Shown: positions 29,905 to 40,190, numbered from the stretch's first letter. The stretch is DNA of 64,000 nt from Dictyostelium discoideum (GCA_000004695.1 CM000151.3:5952001-6016000); one strand, 5' to 3'. A program made the numbers and translations. Notes: generated by a model not told the origin, from the sequence alone.

Positions 29905-30135
29905 TTAATGGACTGCAGGTGATCGAGATGGGAGATCAACCATATGCAAGATACAGTTATATAAGCATGTACCTAATGCTTCTGAACAAACTTCGAGCGG
30001 TGCTGAGTCAAAACCGGTAACACAAAATAGGAAAGTATTTTTGCAATCTTTTTTACATTTGGTATTGAAAATTGAACAAAAAGCTCCAGAGGTGGCAATA
30101 GATAATAAAAGTACAATTAGAATTATTTTATTCAT
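29905..30135 (-). CDS. Small secreted cysteine-rich peptide (76 aa), family member II.
   Basis: It reads MNKIILIVLLLSIATSGAFC|SIFNTKCKKDCKNTFLFCVTGFDSAPLEVCSEALGTCLYNCILHMVDLPSRSPAVH. A signal peptide is followed by a mature domain with C-x6-C-x3-C spacing twice. Paralogs lie at 42199-42444 and 45672-45920. Confidence 0.6.
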   Translation of the reverse strand: MNKIILIVLLLSIATSGAFCSIFNTKCKKDCKNTFLFCVTGFDSAPLEVCSEALGTCLYNCILHMVDLPSRSPAVH

Positions 30136-30970
30136 TTTTATTATATTTTGTTTTTTTTATTATTATTAAAAATTTGAAAAATAGATATTGGTATAATATT
30201 TAAATTATAAAAGTAAATAAAATTTTAAAAAGTATTTATATTAAAAAAAAAAAAAGAAAATTTAATTTGAAAAAATAAAAAAAAAAATAGATATAGTTAT
30301 TAATTATTAAAAAAAAAAAATTTGAAAGTAAATGTGCACCCATCTTAAAACCAAAAGAGGATGACTACATCGATTTTTTATTCCATAATTGTTATTTGAA
30401 TATGACGACAATAATTTTAAGCACCTTTTGTAAATCAAAGAAAAAAATAAAAATAATTTTAAAAAGGTAACTTGCCAATACATAGATTTAATACCAATTT
30501 TTTTAAAATATTTGAGAAAAATATTTATAATTTATGAATTCCATTGGTTATTTTAAAATAAAAAAAGTAAAATAATCTATAGATTTTACAGATAATTTTT
30601 AAAACCATGTACAATTTAGTGTGTGGGTGAAAAAAATAAATTTAGATTTAACAAAAAAAAAAAAATTAAAAAAAAAAATAAATAAATAAATGAAAAAAAT
30701 AAAATAGGAACTGGTTTAAATTGTTAAAAGTCATAATGATAAAAAATGTCAACTTGTGAAATAACAAGTGGTAATTGTAGAATTTTCCATTGATTTTAGC
30801 AGTTGATGGTGCAATAATTATTCCAAATACTAATTTTATTCATTCATTTTTAATTTATTCCTTGAGAATTTAAGTTCTAATTCAAAAAAATAATTTATTT
30901 TTAATTTTATTTATTAATTGAGAATTTAAACTAACTACATTTATAGTTATATTTTAATTTTTTTAGTGGC

Positions 30971-31004
<34 letters not shown>

Positions 31005-31410
31005 TAATTATTTATTTTTTATTATTTATTTGTATTAATTTAATGAATTAATATTTTATTTATTCATTGACAAATTAAATAAATAAAATTACATTTAGAG
31101 TTATAATTTAATATTAATATTAAAATGTTTTTTTTTAAACTAATTTCAAGTGGGGTTAACTTTTTTTTTTTTTTCATTTTTTATATTTTATTTTTTAAGT
31201 TTATATGTTTCATGTAAAATCAAAAAGGGATTTTTTAACCCCTAATTTCACCCTTGAAAAAAACACTTAATAAATTTAATAATATTTGGCAATAAAAATA
31301 AATAAAATGTATTCTTTATTCATTAATTAATAATATTTATGAAGTGCAATATTTAATTATGTGCTTTTTAAAATTTTGAGGGAAAAAATTAGACAATTTT
31401 AAAAAACTAA
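30060..31410. repeat. Segmental duplication block (the 5' part of the Cys-peptide gene plus ~1.3 kb of its upstream region). It is almost identical to 38860-40190.
   Basis: Long colinear identity with only a few mismatches or indels, read by eye. More diverged versions lie at 42380-43160 plus 43700-44300, and at 45860-46600. Confidence 0.8.
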
Positions 31411-31915
31411 ACGCACTATGGACATGGTTTCAAAGTTGGAAAGTCCTAAAAAAAAAAAAAAAGCTTCAAATTCATTATGGATTCTATTGGATCATTATAC
31501 AAAACATTGTAAGATTTCCCAAAGAATTCATAAAAGTAATAATGTTTTCATTGGTTTCAATATTAATGAAAGATATTTTGGTATGATTGCACTGACGAAG
31601 AATGTAAAAAGAAAACACAACAAAAAAAAATTCAAATAAAACTAAATCAAAAAAAAACCATAAAACAATGGAATTCGATGAAGATTTTTTCAATTAAAAT
31701 TCTATAAAAATAAAAAACAAAATAAAAAAAATAAATTTTATAAAAAAAAAAAATGTTTGAAAATATAAAATCATTAATCTTCACAGCAGTTTCTTTATTA
31801 TTCTCTTTTTTTGTTATCATAGTGATTCAATTAAAATCTTGGTGAGGCAGTTTTGGAAACAATAGACGATTCATAAACCCCAAACTTCATTACAACAAGA
31901 ATCATTAAAATTACA

Positions 31916-32503
31916 ATGTACATGCAAACCATTATAAAACAATCGAAAAGTATCGATGAAGATTTGGTACAAGGAACTAAAAAATGGGAAGAAGCAAGAG
32001 AGTAGTATTCTTTAACTGGAAGTAGATTAGCTGCTGCCATTGGAATTGATCGATACACTTCACAACATGATATAAAATTAATATTGGCGAAAAAGAAAAC
32101 CCCATTCTTTAGTGACTACTGTAAAAAGGCAATGGGACATGGAAAACACCAAGAACCAAAAGCAAGAGAATTTTATTTTAATGAATTGGAGACTTCAATT
32201 ATCGAAAAGGGTATCTTTCCATTGCCAGGCGACAAAAGAATTGGATGTTCTCCTGATAGGGTAATTTACACAACAGTACCTGGTAAAGATGGAGTTTTAC
32301 AGCGTGAAGGAGTTATTGAAATTAAATGTCCACTATCTGCCACGAACTTCAGTGGCCTAAAGAATGGTAGAAAACCTGATGCCTTAGCTAATGCTCAGAA
32401 AATACCTCTAGATTACATTCCACAAATATTTGCAAACATGGCATGTACTGGGGCACAATGGTGTGATTATATATGTTGGGTTCCAGGTGGTATACTTTTG
32501 TAG
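31916..32503 (+). pseudogene. YqaJ-type viral recombinase / lambda-exonuclease-like (PD-(D/E)xK) nuclease domain gene. It is disrupted by an in-frame TAG at ~32003-32005 and truncated at its C-terminus.
   Basis: The translation reads MYMQTIIKQSKSIDEDLVQGTKKWEEARE*YSLTGSRLAAAIGIDRYTSQHDIKL...GHGKHQEPKAREFYFNELETSIIEKGIFPLPGDKRIGCSPDRVIY...DGVLQREGVIEIKCPLSATNF...IPLDYIPQIFANMACTGAQWCDYICWVPGG. This matches the YqaJ pattern: W..R.G.iTaS, then gasPDg, then ilEiKCP, then Y..QvQ.Q. The domain stops early at ...GGILL*. Confidence 0.65.
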
Positions 32504-32717
32504 AAGGGTATTCTTTGATACAAATGTATGGAAATTTATTTATTCGTTATCAAAATTATTTATAGATACACCTTTAAATGAAATACCTTTAAAGAATGAA
32601 AAAACATTAATAATAAATACATTACTCTTACAGAAACTTAAAGTTTTAAATCCACACCTAAATATTCATGTACGAACTAAATTATCAAAAAAAATAATAA
32701 AAAATAAAAAAAATAAT

Positions 32718-38095: not shown

Positions 38096-38518
38096 TTTTC
38101 TCATTTTTAAAAAAAAAAAAAAACAAAAAAAAAAAAATCATATAATGGTTTCCTTTATGAAATCAATAAAAAAATTCTTTAAATAAAATTTTTAATCTTA
38201 TTTTAAAAAAATTCTTTTAATGAAATCCATTATTTTCATTTTTTATAATTTTATTGAACTTTATTGAAAATAATTAGATATTGTTATTTCCAATGGTTTT
38301 AGATTGATAACGGTATAGATGTGACCATTAAATAGAAAACTATTAAAAATTGAGCCAAAGAAAAATCAACGATTTTTAATGGTTGTTTAAAGATTTCCTA
38401 TAGAAAATTTAAAATGATTTTTTTAAAAATATTTCAAAACCAATGTCATAAAATAAAAATTCTCAATTACTAAATATAAACATGTATAGATCATTAGGTT
38501 TATTTTTAAAAAAAAACG

Positions 38519-38773
38519 ATGGGTGCCCGTCAAAAAAAAGAAATTGAAGCAGATCCTGAAAGGGTAAAATTAATAAAAATTAAAAAAACACAAAAAAGAT
38601 TGGCCGAACAAGAAGAAAGAAGAAGGTTGATGCAAGAAGAAAGTGAAAGAAGACGATTGCAAAGACTTAGAGAAAAACAAGAGCCAATTAGAACCTTTGC
38701 AACTGCACAAGAAGCTCAACGATATATACCCAAACCTGGTAACTTTGCACGTAAAAGAGGTGCTAGAAATTAA
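38519..38773 (+). CDS. Small (84 aa) Lys/Arg/Glu-rich protein.
   Basis: MGARQKKEIEADPERVKLIKIKKTQKRLAEQEERRRLMQEESERRRLQRLREKQEPIRTFATAQEAQRYIPKPGNFARKRGARN. Its codon usage is less AT-biased than the surrounding DNA. I did not recognise the family. Confidence 0.35.
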   Translation: MGARQKKEIEADPERVKLIKIKKTQKRLAEQEERRRLMQEESERRRLQRLREKQEPIRTFATAQEAQRYIPKPGNFARKRGARN

Positions 38774-38857
38774 AAAAGAAAAAAGAAAAATAATTGAAAG
38801 AAATAAAAAAAAAAAAATTAAAAATTAAAAAAAAAATAAACTACATCTCTTATATAA

Positions 38858-38903
38858 GAGGTGGCAATAGATAATAAAAGTACAATTAGAATTATTTTTT
38901 TCA
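38858..38903 (-). pseudogene. 5'-truncated stub (signal-peptide codons only) of a Cys-peptide family gene. It sits at the junction where duplicate block III begins.
   Basis: The minus strand reads ATGAAAAAAATAATTCTAATTGTACTTTTATTATCTATTGCCACCT..., which is MKKIILIVLLLSIAT, and then the homology stops. Confidence 0.55.
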
Positions 38904-39741
38904 TTTTTATTATATTTGTTTTTTTTTATTATTATTAAAAATTTGAAAAATAGATATTGGTATAATATTTAAATTATAAAAGTAAATAAAATTTTAAAAA
39001 GTATTTATATTAAAAAAAAAAAAAGAAAATTTTATTAGAAAAAATAAAAAAAAAAATAAAAATAGTTATTAATTATTAAAAAAAAAAAATTTGAAAAGTA
39101 AAGGTGCACCCATCTTAAAAACAAAAAAGGATGACTACATCGATCTTTTATTCCATAATTGTTATTTGAATATGACGACAAAAATTTTAAGCACCTATTG
39201 TAAATCAAAGAAAAAAATAAAAATAATTTTAAAAAGGTAACTTGCCAATACATAGATTTTATACCAATTTTTTAAAATATTTGAGAAAAATATTTATAAT
39301 TTATGAATTCCATTGGTTATTTTAAAATTAAAAAAAGTAAAATAATCTATAGATTTTACAGATAATTTTTAAAACCATGTGCAATTTAGTGTGTGGGTGA
39401 AAAAAATAAATTTAGATTTAACAAAAAAAAAAAAATTAAAAAAAAAAATAAATAAATAAATGAAAAAAATAAAATAGGAACTGGTTTAAATTGTTAAAAG
39501 TCATAATGATAAAAAATGTCAACTTGTGAAATAACAAGTGGTAATTGTAGGAATTTTCCATTGATTTTAGCAGTTGATTGTGCAATAATTATTCCAAATA
39601 CTAATTTTATTCATTCATTTTTAATTTATTCCTTGAGAATTTAAGTTCTAATTCAAAAAAATAATTTATTTTTAATTATATTTATTAATTGAGAATTTAA
39701 ACTAACTACATTTATAGTTATATTTTAATTTTTTTAGTGTC

Positions 39742-39776
<35 letters not shown>

Positions 39777-40190
39777 TAATTATTTATTTTTTATTATTTA
39801 TTTGTATTAATTTAATGAATTAATATTTTATTTATTCATTGCCAAATTAAATAAATAAAATTACATTTAGAGTTATAATTTAATATTAATATTAAAATGT
39901 TTTTTTTTAAACCTAATTTCAAGTGGGGTTAACTTTTTTTTTTTTCATTTTTTATATTTTATTTTTTAAGTTTATATGTTTCATGTAAAATCAAAAAGGG
40001 ATTTTTTAACCCCTAATTTCACCCTTGAAAAAAACACTTAATAAATTTAATAATATTTGGCAATAAAAATAAATAAAATGTATTCTTTGTTCATTAATTA
40101 ATAATATTTATGAAGTGCAATATTTAATTATGTGCTTTTTAAAATTTTGAGGGAAAAAATTAGACAATTTTAAAAAACTAAGTAAACTTA
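38860..40190. repeat. Second near-identical copy of the 1.33-kb segmental duplication block (see 30060-31410).
   Basis: See 30060-31410. Confidence 0.8.

What the first reader, a model, noticed from the sequence alone, without database searches (positions are those of the whole stretch)
30060..40190. Two virtually identical 1.33-kb blocks bracket the island; the right block starts with a 5'-truncated Cys-peptide gene
Block 30060-31410 ends at ...aaaaaactaa and is followed by island sequence. Block 38860-40190 begins inside the signal-peptide codons of a Cys-peptide gene and continues into the GTPase gene. Together this looks like an ectopic or unequal recombination event, or an insertion mediated by microhomology, not a simple cut-and-paste insertion with a short TSD. 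The near identity contrasts with the ~80-85% identity of blocks IV and V, so the event is younger than the family.
Basis: seen in the sequence. Interest (0 to 1): 0.6.

Follow-up and report, generated by a model that had tools for sequence, protein, structure and literature searches.

The report
Virus relic bracketed by duplicated host DNA
In the Dictyostelium discoideum AX4 genome, a decayed 7.4-kb piece of a virus-like mobile element lies between two 98%-identical copies of a 1.3-kb host promoter region, which is the mark of foreign DNA patched into a broken chromosome by error-prone repair rather than by an integrase; it is real, but it is a new example of a known kind of event.

Summary
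Block A (30088-31410) and block A' (38857-40181) are direct repeats, 1323 and 1325 nt long. They differ by 20 substitutions and 8 indel columns (97.9% identity). Other units of the same tandem array are only 75-86% alike. An independent assembly is base-identical across A (from 30334), the island and A', so this is not an assembly artefact.

The window is D. discoideum AX4 chromosome 2. The repeated block is host DNA. It holds the first 48 nt (ATG plus 15 signal-peptide codons) of a minus-strand Cys-peptide gene and nearly all of the divergent intergenic region up to 153 nt before a P-loop gene. Two related strains lack the island and carry this block once, continuous with both genes.

The island (31411-38856) is a permuted, internally deleted relic of a virus-like element of at least 21 kb (A32-type packaging ATPase, YqaJ nuclease, primase-helicase). 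That element is multi-copy in sister lineages.

Both host-island junctions fall at internal points of the element. They show only 2 nt (AA) and 4 nt (AGAG) of microhomology.

Best reading: a single non-homologous duplication-insertion event, like the 'Z-pattern' integration of tumour viruses. The main rival is a recent unit duplication, then insertion, then flank-eroding deletions.

The parts
28791..29318 (-). Array unit I. It is a partial older paralogue holding a Cys-peptide gene region plus about 230 nt of A-like sequence.
   Evidence: It is 77-84% identical to units II, IV and V.
29905..30135 (-). Intact Cys-peptide gene of unit II. It is a 76-aa ORF with signal peptide MNKIILIVLLLSIATSGAF. 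Its first 48 nt lie inside block A.
   Evidence: ORF list. Paralogues lie at 42199-42444 and 45672-45920 on the same strand.
30088..31410 (.). Block A, the left copy of the duplicated host segment. It holds 48 nt of Cys-peptide CDS plus 1275 nt of the divergent intergenic (promoter) region.
   Evidence: It is single-copy and continuous with both genes in the island-less strains L007 and L008.
31409..31410 (.). Left host-island junction. It carries 2 nt of microhomology (AA). Host reads ...AAAAAACTAA|GTAAAC and the element reads ...AAATCGAA|ACGCACTATGG.
   Evidence: Three-way alignments with element copies L010 (93% identity) and L009 (87% identity).
31411..33374 (+). Island segment S1. It holds the last-exon remnant of the element's 595-aa gene, a degenerate YqaJ exonuclease gene (domain ORF 32006-32500) and the start of the next gene, with an internal deletion.
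   Evidence: Pfam YqaJ E=2.6e-33. The stretch 31447-32800 matches L009 15055-16434 (86.6%), 31396-32621 matches L010 (93.5%), and 32845-33374 matches L001 1-894.
33375..33808 (.). An AT-rich stretch of the island with no assignable source.
   Evidence: Only low-complexity matches were found.
33809..35745 (+). Island segment S2. It holds an A32-type packaging-ATPase pseudogene (ATG 33888; about 190 nt including Walker A GKRRSGKS deleted), a 126-aa gene (34809-35189, minus strand) and the C-terminal part of the 260-aa gene (minus strand).
   Evidence: It is 95-98% identical to L001 9926-12085. Homologues carry PF04665 Pox_A32. The Walker A deletion is shown.
35746..38856 (+). Island segment S3. 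It holds a small minus-strand gene (35883-36230), a roughly 530-nt spacer inverted relative to L009 (36335-36870), and a complete multi-exon gene homologous to the 419-aa protein P0021 (about 36882-38773). In other copies this module lies to the left of YqaJ, so the island is circularly permuted.
   Evidence: The S2|S3 joint at 35745/6 lies in an A-run.
38857..38860 (.). Right island-host junction. It carries 4 nt of microhomology (AGAG). The element reads ...TCTTATATAAGAG|T.. and the host reads ...GCTCCAGAG|GTGGCAAT.
   Evidence: Two independent element copies, L009 and L010, read AAGAG at this position.
38857..38904 (-). Stub of the Cys-peptide gene in A'. It keeps the ATG plus 15 signal-peptide codons (MKKIILIVLLLSIATS) and then reads into island sequence. 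The mature peptide is missing.
   Evidence: Translation.
38857..40181 (.). Block A', the right copy of the duplicated host segment. It continues natively into the P-loop gene.
   Evidence: The A'-C continuity matches L007, L008 and unit IV.
40334..41365 (+). P-loop NTPase-like gene DDB_G0275487 (318 aa, one intron). It keeps its full upstream region through A'.
   Evidence: P0008 is 100% identical. The gene model comes from L006. GTPase family matches are weak only.
41997..47145 (.). Older array units IV (41997-45461) and V (45462 to about 47145), used as outgroups.
   Evidence: They are 75-86% identical to units II and III.

Best explanation
This is a single non-homologous 'duplication-insertion'.

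The ancestral unit read L-A-C. L is the 3' part of a minus-strand Cys-peptide gene. A is its 5' end plus the shared intergenic promoter region. C is the P-loop gene.

In an ancestor of AX4, a defective, rearranged piece of DNA from a virus-like element became joined to the chromosome at two host positions 1323 nt apart, in 'inverted' order. That element carries an A32 packaging ATPase, a YqaJ nuclease and a primase-helicase. One end of the piece joined the host at position 31410. The other end joined 1.3 kb upstream, at the equivalent of 30088. The host stretch between the two positions is therefore present on both sides: L-A-[island]-A'-C.

The joins used 2-4 nt of microhomology. No integrase site and no long homology were involved. 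Three routes would all give this product, and the sequence cannot tell them apart:
- end joining followed by break-induced or template-switch re-replication;
- joining of unequally broken sister chromatids with captured DNA;
- fill-in of breaks staggered by 1.3 kb.

The structure, the junctions, the viral origin of the island and the empty-site alleles are shown by the data. The single-step origin is inferred.

One consequence, also inferred: each of the two divergently transcribed host genes kept a full-length 5' flank. This may be why the insertion was tolerated.

The copies have since diverged by 1.5%. The island has decayed to pseudogenes.
For: 1. A-island-A' geometry with sharp edges.

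2. Empty-site alleles. In two related D. discoideum assemblies (L007, L008) the block occurs once and is continuous with the Cys-peptide gene on one side and the P-loop gene on the other. Both breakpoint sites are intact there.

3. A and A' are about equally distant from that single orthologue (91.3/90.6% and 92.7/92.1% identity), and derived substitutions split about evenly (6 in A, 7-8 in A'). The duplication therefore arose in the AX4 lineage.

4. The only young duplicate in any of the three arrays is the pair that brackets the only foreign insertion. Within-array identity in L007 and L008 is 86% or less. This argues for a causal link between duplication and insertion.

5. The island is foreign and virus-derived. 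It has a YqaJ domain (E=2.6e-33). It has an A32-type ATPase whose full-length homologues hit PF04665. It shares 86-98% nucleotide identity with copies of an element of at least 21 kb. Those copies are 99% identical to each other in D. cf. discoideum, and they also encode a DUF5906/VapE-like primase-helicase.

6. Both junctions are at internal points of the element. One is inside the last exon of the 595-aa gene. The other is 96 nt past the stop codon of the P0021-like gene. Microhomology is AA and AGAG only.

7. The island is permuted and has several internal deletions whose joints lie in short repeats. This is typical of defective or concatemeric viral DNA captured by repair.

8. A documented precedent has the same geometry. 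[quoted passage not shown]
Against: No intermediate allele is available, so a one-step origin is not proven.

The element sequences used to read the junctions are relatives (87-93% identical), not the true donor.

Microhomology of 4 nt or more is expected at roughly 6% of random joints in DNA this AT-rich (my own estimate from base composition). The microhomology is therefore compatible with the model rather than diagnostic.

Substitutions between A and A' are unevenly spread: 13 in the first 341 nt and 7 in the remaining 982 nt (Fisher P=2e-4 at the best split, P=0.002 at a fixed split). A simple duplicate-then-drift history does not predict this. It needs an added assumption, such as later A/A' gene conversion.

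The array itself is recombination-prone. It contains partial units, and copy number and inversions differ between strains.
Confidence: 0.6

Rival explanations
1. A multi-step history. First, a recent unequal crossover duplicated a whole array unit, giving L-A-C-L-A'-C. Second, the element inserted conventionally somewhere in the C-L interval. Third, deletions that also gutted the element ran outward into host DNA on both sides. These removed the first P-loop gene copy and the 3' part of the second Cys-peptide gene. What the two flanks still share is seen as the 1.3-kb repeat.
For: The locus is a tandem array that clearly gains, loses and truncates units (unit I; the extra partial unit X in L007). 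The island has suffered at least three internal deletions or rearrangements, so further deletions at its ends are plausible. Both island ends are internal points of the element, as deletion joints would be. Deletion joints also show microhomology.
Against: It needs at least four events where one suffices. It requires the only young unit duplication seen in three arrays to be exactly the one that received the only viral insertion. No trace remains of a second P-loop gene or a second Cys-peptide 3' end.
Confidence: 0.22
2. Campbell-type homologous integration. A circular or concatemeric form of the element had picked up a copy of block A and recombined with the chromosomal block A by a single crossover. 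This left the element flanked by direct repeats of the homology.
For: The A-B-A geometry is what a single crossover with a circle gives. The island is circularly permuted relative to other copies. The element encodes a YqaJ / lambda-exonuclease-type recombination nuclease.
Against: In the two element copies that span the relevant interval (L009, L010), the sequence beyond each breakpoint is ordinary element sequence. It contains diverged homologues of the 152/111-aa gene and the 595-aa gene, with no block-A-like DNA. Host and element share only 2-4 nt at the joints.
Confidence: 0.04
3. The repeats belong to the mobile element itself (LTR-like or long terminal direct repeats), or the insertion is an integrase/transposase product with an unusual target-site duplication.
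For: Two 1.3-kb direct repeats around a 7.4-kb coding core look superficially like an LTR element. Full-length copies encode a 616-719-aa protein with a weak Integrase_H2C2 zinc-finger match (E=4e-4, below the cut-off).
Against: The repeat is host DNA. It is single-copy and syntenic in island-less strains, and it contains the start of a host gene. It is absent from every element copy examined. No reverse transcriptase or DDE integrase core was seen in the island. The junctions are internal to the element, not at its termini.
Confidence: 0.02
4. Assembly artefact: a chimeric join or a mis-placed repeat in the reference sequence.
For: The region is extremely AT-rich and repetitive, which is where assemblies fail.
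Against: An independent assembly (contig of 4.9 Mb, with different homopolymer lengths elsewhere) is identical over 30334-41571. It keeps the differences that distinguish A from A' over 30334-31410 (12 substitutions plus indels).
Confidence: 0.01

Closest known systems
'Z-pattern' integration of Merkel cell polyomavirus and the related HPV/HBV duplication-type integrations (MMEJ followed by MMBIR; PMC7470373)
   Same: The two virus-host junctions map to the host in inverted order, so the host DNA between them is duplicated as direct repeats flanking the viral insert. The inserted viral DNA is defective, rearranged or concatemer-derived. The junctions show short microhomology. No integrase is involved.
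   Different: Those events are somatic, in human tumours, with small circular viruses, and duplications are often tens to hundreds of kb. Here the event is fixed in the germline of a haploid amoeba. The donor is an element of at least 21 kb of another virus class. The duplication is 1.3 kb. The insert has since decayed. The mechanism is inferred by analogy and was not tested.
Polinton/Maverick and polinton-like virus (PLV) insertions in protist genomes
   Same: The donor element is a multi-copy, virus-like element tens of kb long, with an A32/FtsK-type packaging ATPase and a primase-helicase. It is integrated in amoebozoan chromosomes. Polintons have been reported in dictyostelids (PMC3671162).
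   Different: Canonical Polintons integrate by an rve integrase, with terminal inverted repeats and a 5-6-bp target duplication (my knowledge of the family). Here the flanking duplication is 1323 nt and the junctions are internal to the element. No pPolB, rve core or capsid gene was identified in the roughly 30 kb of element seen. The element termini were not reached.
Capture of extrachromosomal DNA at double-strand breaks (NUMT/NUPT insertions, T-DNA and transgene integration with filler DNA and target duplications)
   Same: Non-homologous joining, microhomology at junctions, rearranged inserts, and occasional duplication of target DNA.
   Different: The donor here is viral. A kb-scale clean direct duplication is at the large end of what is usually described for these insertions (my knowledge; not checked in the literature here).
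Unequal crossing-over in tandem gene arrays
   Same: The event lies in a tandem array of Cys-peptide/P-loop units whose copy number varies between strains. It created an extra partial unit.
   Different: Unequal crossover joins homologous positions and adds no foreign DNA. Here the duplicate's edges are non-homologous joints to a viral fragment.

Membership tests
Duplication-type ('Z-pattern') non-homologous viral integration | The host junctions are in inverted order: the insert's right junction maps upstream of its left junction, so the intervening host DNA flanks the insert as direct repeats. | tested here: met
   A is 30088-31410 and A' is 38857-40181, around the island 31411-38856. The host order L-A-C is confirmed by the empty sites in L007 and L008.
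Duplication-type ('Z-pattern') non-homologous viral integration | The insert is viral DNA, typically defective, rearranged or concatemer-derived. | tested here: met
   The island has YqaJ and an A32 ATPase and shares 86-98% identity with multi-copy elements of at least 21 kb. It is permuted, has at least three internal deletions, and has lost Walker A.
Duplication-type ('Z-pattern') non-homologous viral integration | There is short microhomology, and no long homology, at the virus-host junctions. | tested here: met
   AGAG (4 nt) and AA (2 nt), read against two related element copies. The true donor is not available.
Duplication-type ('Z-pattern') non-homologous viral integration | Duplication and insertion arise in one repair or replication event. 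| not testable with these tools
   No intermediate alleles were found. The support is indirect: the only young duplicate coincides with the only insertion.
Integrase/transposase insertion (Polinton/Maverick-like) | A short fixed-length target-site duplication (5-6 bp), with the element termini (TIRs) at the junctions. | tested here: not met
   The flanking duplication is 1323 nt. One junction is inside an exon of the 595-aa gene and the other is in an internal intergenic spacer.
Polinton-like virus / virophage-like endogenous element (identity of the donor) | An A32/FtsK-type genome-packaging ATPase. | tested here: met
   PF04665 at 29.6 bits against a cut-off of 22.8 in the full-length homologue. 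There are precomputed hits in P0001 and P0004-P0007.
Polinton-like virus / virophage-like endogenous element (identity of the donor) | Double jelly-roll major capsid protein and penton protein. | not tested
   The candidate genes (443/232 aa, minus strand) have introns. No Pfam hit was found.
Polinton-like virus / virophage-like endogenous element (identity of the donor) | A replication protein (pPolB or primase-helicase) and an integrase. | tested here: inconclusive
   The 842-aa ORF matches DUF5906 (E=3e-15) and VapE-like (below the cut-off), with a weak match to the NrS-1 primase-helicase. The only integrase signal is a sub-threshold Integrase_H2C2 match. The ends of the element were not reached.
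LTR-type element | The direct repeats are part of the element and travel with it, and reverse transcriptase and integrase genes lie between them. | tested here: not met
   The repeat is single-copy syntenic host DNA in L007 and L008 and is absent from all element copies. No RT was found.
Campbell-type homologous integration | The donor carries a copy of the duplicated host segment. | tested here: not met
   L009 and L010 carry ordinary element genes across the interval. Only 2-4 nt are shared with the host. This holds only for the copies that could be examined.

The most novel reading that the evidence does not exclude
The kb-scale host duplication may not be an accident of one repair event. 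It may be the regular footprint of how this element family enters chromosomes. The family encodes a YqaJ / lambda-exonuclease-type recombination nuclease and shows no recognisable DDE integrase core in the roughly 30 kb examined. It might integrate by resection and annealing at microhomologies, coupled to break-induced replication. The AX4 relic would then be a germline fossil of an integrase-independent integration pathway for polinton-like or virophage-like viruses in Amoebozoa. A corollary follows from the geometry. The duplicated promoter copies now point into the relic from both sides and could drive antisense transcription of it.
Probability: 0.1. Interest if true: 0.65.

Novelty: new member of a known kind. 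Interest (0 to 1): 0.4.

Why it matters
The finding gives a clean, base-resolved germline example of viral DNA entering a protist chromosome by microhomology-type repair with a kb-scale duplication of host DNA. It comes with empty-site alleles, with both junctions readable, and in a model organism.

This geometry is so far documented mainly for tumour viruses in human cells. It shows that such events can be fixed and can duplicate a bidirectional promoter, so that both neighbouring genes keep their 5' flanks.

It also shows that several 'hypothetical' AX4 genes are pieces of a decayed virus-like element. One is DDB_G0275725. The others are the YqaJ and P0021-like models in 31.9-38.8 kb. The intact, 99%-identical multi-copy relatives of that element sit in newly sequenced sister lineages, which points to a recently active virus or mobile element of dictyostelids.

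For annotation, the stub at 38857-38904 and the island ORFs should be treated as pseudogenes.

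Tried and rejected
1. Bacterial-type scans were uninformative. No tRNA genes are in the window, so this is not a tRNA-targeted TRE-type insertion.

2. The repeat finder on the region was swamped by poly-A/T and (AAT)n. A self-BLAST with dust masking was needed (the first attempt timed out).

3. Exact-protein look-ups found nothing on record for the Cys-peptide ORF, the 126-aa island ORF, the 84-aa ORF, P0003 and P0019.

4. A concatenated six-ORF query wasted the last homology search. 

5. A search for terminal inverted repeats, or for island ends in the right-hand 10 kb of the element copies, gave only low-complexity matches. 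The element termini were not reached, so its normal integration footprint is unknown.

6. I considered that 'AAGAG' is a true element terminus, because L009 and L010 also lose nucleotide similarity there. I rejected this. The next genes are homologous at protein level (41-66% identity), so the element continues.

7. I considered gene conversion from other array units as the source of the A/A' differences. I rejected this because, at the 18 A/A' differences in 30088-30611 that could be polarised, the derived state is not shared with IV or V, apart from the ambiguous adjacent TG/GT pair at 30149-30150, where unit IV matches A.

8. I considered one-sided BIR mutagenesis. I rejected this because derived changes are split about evenly between the copies.

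9. Literature searches for these gene identifiers, or for a described Dictyostelium element of this type, found nothing specific.

Full report
**What the window is.** Base composition is 13-39% GC, with long poly-A/T and (AAT)n tracts. Exact protein matches identify D. discoideum AX4 chromosome 2 (8.48 Mb): DDB_G0275725 and DDB_G0275487. Cyclin B and an LSm gene lie just to the right.

**The observation.**
- A dust-masked self-BLAST gives one outstanding direct repeat, 30088-31410 against 38857-40181, at 97.9% identity over 1328 columns.
- A global alignment shows 20 substitutions and 8 indel columns, with sharp edges on both sides.
- The same sequence family recurs as older units at 28791-29318 (I), 41997-45461 (IV) and 45462 to about 47145 (V), at 75-86% identity.
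- The structure is not an assembly artefact. Locus L006, from a different assembly (GCA_054883475.1, a 4.9-Mb contig), has no difference from the window over 30334-41571. That span covers most of A, the whole island and A'. L006 differs further right only in homopolymer lengths and three substitutions, which shows the data are independent.

**What the repeated block is.**
- The Cys-peptide genes are on the minus strand: 29905-30135, 42199-42444 and 45672-45920.
- Block A therefore starts 48 nt inside the 5' end of the gene (ATG at 30135). It then runs through 1275 nt of upstream DNA towards the divergently transcribed P-loop gene.
- That gene's ATG is at 40334, 153 nt beyond the end of A'.
- The stub at the start of A' (38857-38904) keeps the ATG and 15 signal-peptide codons and lacks the mature peptide.
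- The 'GTPase' label is weak. There is a Walker A motif, but only sub-threshold MMR_HSR1/AIG1 matches. The family has 11 homologues in the 5.8-billion-protein collection, and 10 of them are from Dictyostelium (the eleventh is an unnamed JGI protein).

**Empty sites.**
- The P-loop homologues led to the orthologous locus in two other D. discoideum assemblies, L007 and L008.
- Their flanks are 97-98% identical to AX4 in conserved parts.
- Both lack the island. Both carry the block once, continuous with the Cys-peptide gene on one side and the P-loop gene on the other.
- The ancestral order is therefore L-A-C, and AX4 is L-A-island-A'-C.
- A and A' are about equally distant from the single orthologue (about 91-93% identity). 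They are 97% alike over the same stretch.
- At sites that can be polarised, 6 derived substitutions are in A and 7-8 in A', and, apart from the ambiguous adjacent TG/GT pair at 30149-30150, where unit IV matches A, none is shared with units IV or V.
- The duplication therefore arose in the AX4 lineage, after its split from those strains and long after the array formed.
- Within-array identity in L007 and L008 never exceeds 86%. The only young duplicate in three arrays is the one bracketing the only insertion.

**What the island is.**
- ORF 32006-32500 is a YqaJ-type exonuclease domain (Pfam E=2.6e-33).
- ORF 34058-34822 is the C-terminal part of an A32-type packaging ATPase. Its homologues carry PF04665, and the full-length 362-aa form scores above the Pfam cut-off.
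- In AX4 about 190 nt including Walker A (GKRRSGKS) are deleted, so it is a pseudogene.
- The homologues led to four copies of an element of at least 21 kb on one contig of D. cf. discoideum (L001-L004). These copies are 99% identical to each other. Variant copies are L005, L009 and L010.
- The element also encodes a GRF zinc-ribbon protein and an 842-aa DUF5906/VapE-like primase-helicase with a weak match to the NrS-1 primase-helicase. It also encodes a 616-719-aa protein with a sub-threshold Integrase_H2C2 match, and a dozen proteins without matches.
- Its ends were not reached.
- The last small ORF of the island (38519-38773) proved to be the final exon of a gene homologous to the 419-aa protein P0021. 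That homology ties 36882-38773 together and gave locus L009.

**Map of the island against these copies**:

| Segment | Window | Source and content |
|---|---|---|
| S1 | 31411-33374 | End of the 595-aa gene, YqaJ and the start of the next gene |
| (unassigned) | 33375-33808 | 434 nt with no assignable source |
| S2 | 33809-35745 | A32 remnant, the 126-aa gene and part of the 260-aa gene |
| S3 | 35746-38856 | A small minus-strand gene, a spacer inverted relative to L009, and the P0021-like gene |

- In L009, L010 and L005 the S3 module lies to the left of YqaJ. In AX4 it lies to the right of S2.
- The island is therefore a circularly permuted, same-orientation, heavily deleted version of the element. 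It lacks, among much else, the 2.9 kb between the end of S3 and the start of S1.
- That is what a broken circle or a unit-length piece of a concatemer would look like. Tandem copies with deletions, or serial template switches, would look the same.
- No other part of the 64-kb window matches the element.

**The junctions.** They were read against the related copies.
- Right junction: the element reads ...CTACATCTCTTATATAAGAG|T... in both L009 and L010. The host reads ...GCTCCAGAG|GTGGCAAT. The window reads ...TATATAAGAGGTGGCAAT. This gives 4 nt of microhomology (AGAG, 38857-38860).
- Left junction: the host reads ...AAAAAACTAA|GTAAAC. The element (L010) reads ...AAATCGAA|ACGCACTATGG. The window reads ...AAAAAACTAAACGCACTATGG. 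This gives 2 nt (AA), within a loose 7-of-10 match.
- Both breakpoints are internal to the element. One is in the last exon of the 595-aa gene. The other is 96 nt past the stop codon of the P0021-like gene.
- Beyond each breakpoint the other copies continue with ordinary element genes, not with anything like block A.
- The internal S2|S3 joint lies in an A-run.

**Interpretation.**
- The geometry rules out three things. These are an integrase-type insertion with a short target duplication, an LTR-like element, and a single homologous crossover with a donor carrying block A (at least for the donors that could be examined).
- The deciding facts are that the host junctions are in inverted order, the foreign insert is defective, only microhomology is present, and the breakpoints are internal.
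- The geometry matches the duplication-type integration described for Merkel cell polyomavirus ('Z-pattern'). [quoted passage not shown] The viral DNA is defective or concatemeric. MMEJ followed by microhomology-mediated break-induced replication is proposed (PMC7470373).
- I take a single duplication-insertion of this kind as the best explanation (0.6).
- Three sub-mechanisms cannot be separated from sequence alone. They are re-replication after end joining, joining of unequally broken sister chromatids with captured DNA, and fill-in of breaks staggered by 1.3 kb.
- The main rival (0.22) has three steps: a recent whole-unit duplication, then a conventional insertion between the two units, then deletions from the decaying element into both flanks.
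- That rival is plausible for a recombination-prone array and an obviously eroded insert. However, it needs several events and a coincidence.

**Open points.**
- Substitutions between A and A' are clustered: 13 in the first 341 nt and 7 in the next 982 nt. They show no one-sided bias. Later gene conversion between the two copies over the right-hand kilobase would explain this, and the event would then be older than the 1.5% average suggests. This is unproven.
- The microhomologies are short for DNA this AT-rich. By my own estimate, a run of 4 nt or more would occur at about 6% of random joints.
- The donor sequences are only 87-93% identical to the island.

**Consequence (inference).** The duplicated segment is almost the whole bidirectional intergenic region. 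The intact Cys-peptide gene therefore keeps 1.27 kb of its 5' flank, and the P-loop gene keeps all 1.43 kb of its own. A simple insertion at either breakpoint would have cut one gene off from the shared region or destroyed the Cys-peptide gene.

**Novelty.**
- No paper in the held library mentions these genes or a Dictyostelium element of this type.
- Polintons are known in other dictyostelids.
- The event is a new, well-resolved member of a known class of repair-mediated insertions.
- The more interesting by-product is the recently active virus-like element family of at least 21 kb in the D. discoideum species complex, of which AX4 keeps only this relic.

Noticed in passing
L001-L004 (GCA_054859205.1 contig JBTAPH010000036.1); L005, L009, L010: A virus-like element family of at least 21 kb. 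It encodes a YqaJ nuclease, an A32 ATPase, a DUF5906 primase-helicase, a GRF zinc-ribbon protein and a protein with a weak Integrase_H2C2 match. Copies within D. cf. discoideum are 99% identical to each other, which suggests recent activity. Two copies abut contig ends. The termini, the capsid genes and the integration footprint are unknown.
   Followed up: partly
window 30088-30428 versus 30429-31410: Divergence between the two block copies is uneven: 3.8% in the first 341 nt against 0.7% in the remaining 982 nt (P about 2e-4). Derived changes are split evenly between the copies. Later A/A' gene conversion may explain this.
   Followed up: partly
window 33888-34060: The A32 packaging-ATPase remnant has lost about 190 nt including the Walker A motif, and it has an in-frame stop. 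The annotated gene DDB_G0275725 (194 aa) is a fragment of a viral pseudogene.
   Followed up: yes
window 36335-36870: The roughly 530-nt spacer between the divergent small gene and the P0021-like gene is inverted in place relative to L009 9497-10023.
   Followed up: no
window 10906-11916, with related copies at 8905-9589 and 8636-8922 / 9819-10105: A tandem array with a period of about 129 nt, about 8 copies at 90-91% identity, plus dispersed related copies at 82-95%. It is probably a repetitive coding or satellite region.
   Followed up: no
L007 9007-9348 and 11636-12314; L008 8838-9739: The Cys-peptide/P-loop array differs structurally between strains. L007 has an inverted part of block A and an extra partial unit. 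L008 has a shorter block A. The array DNA is 8-12% divergent while the flanks are 2-3% divergent, so this is a fast-evolving, lineage-restricted locus.
   Followed up: partly
AX4 chromosome 1, DDB_G0268732 (protein P0019): An 84-aa ORF is 90% identical to the last exon of the island's P0021-like gene. AX4 therefore holds at least one more fragment of the element family elsewhere.
   Followed up: no
window 62442-62629 and 63812-64000: A direct repeat at 84.6% identity that runs off the end of the window.
   Followed up: no
L009 1-3721: Two DDE_Tnp_4 (Harbinger/PIF-type) transposase genes lie next to the element copy in D. cf. discoideum. It is unclear whether they are part of the element or separate transposons.
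   Followed up: no
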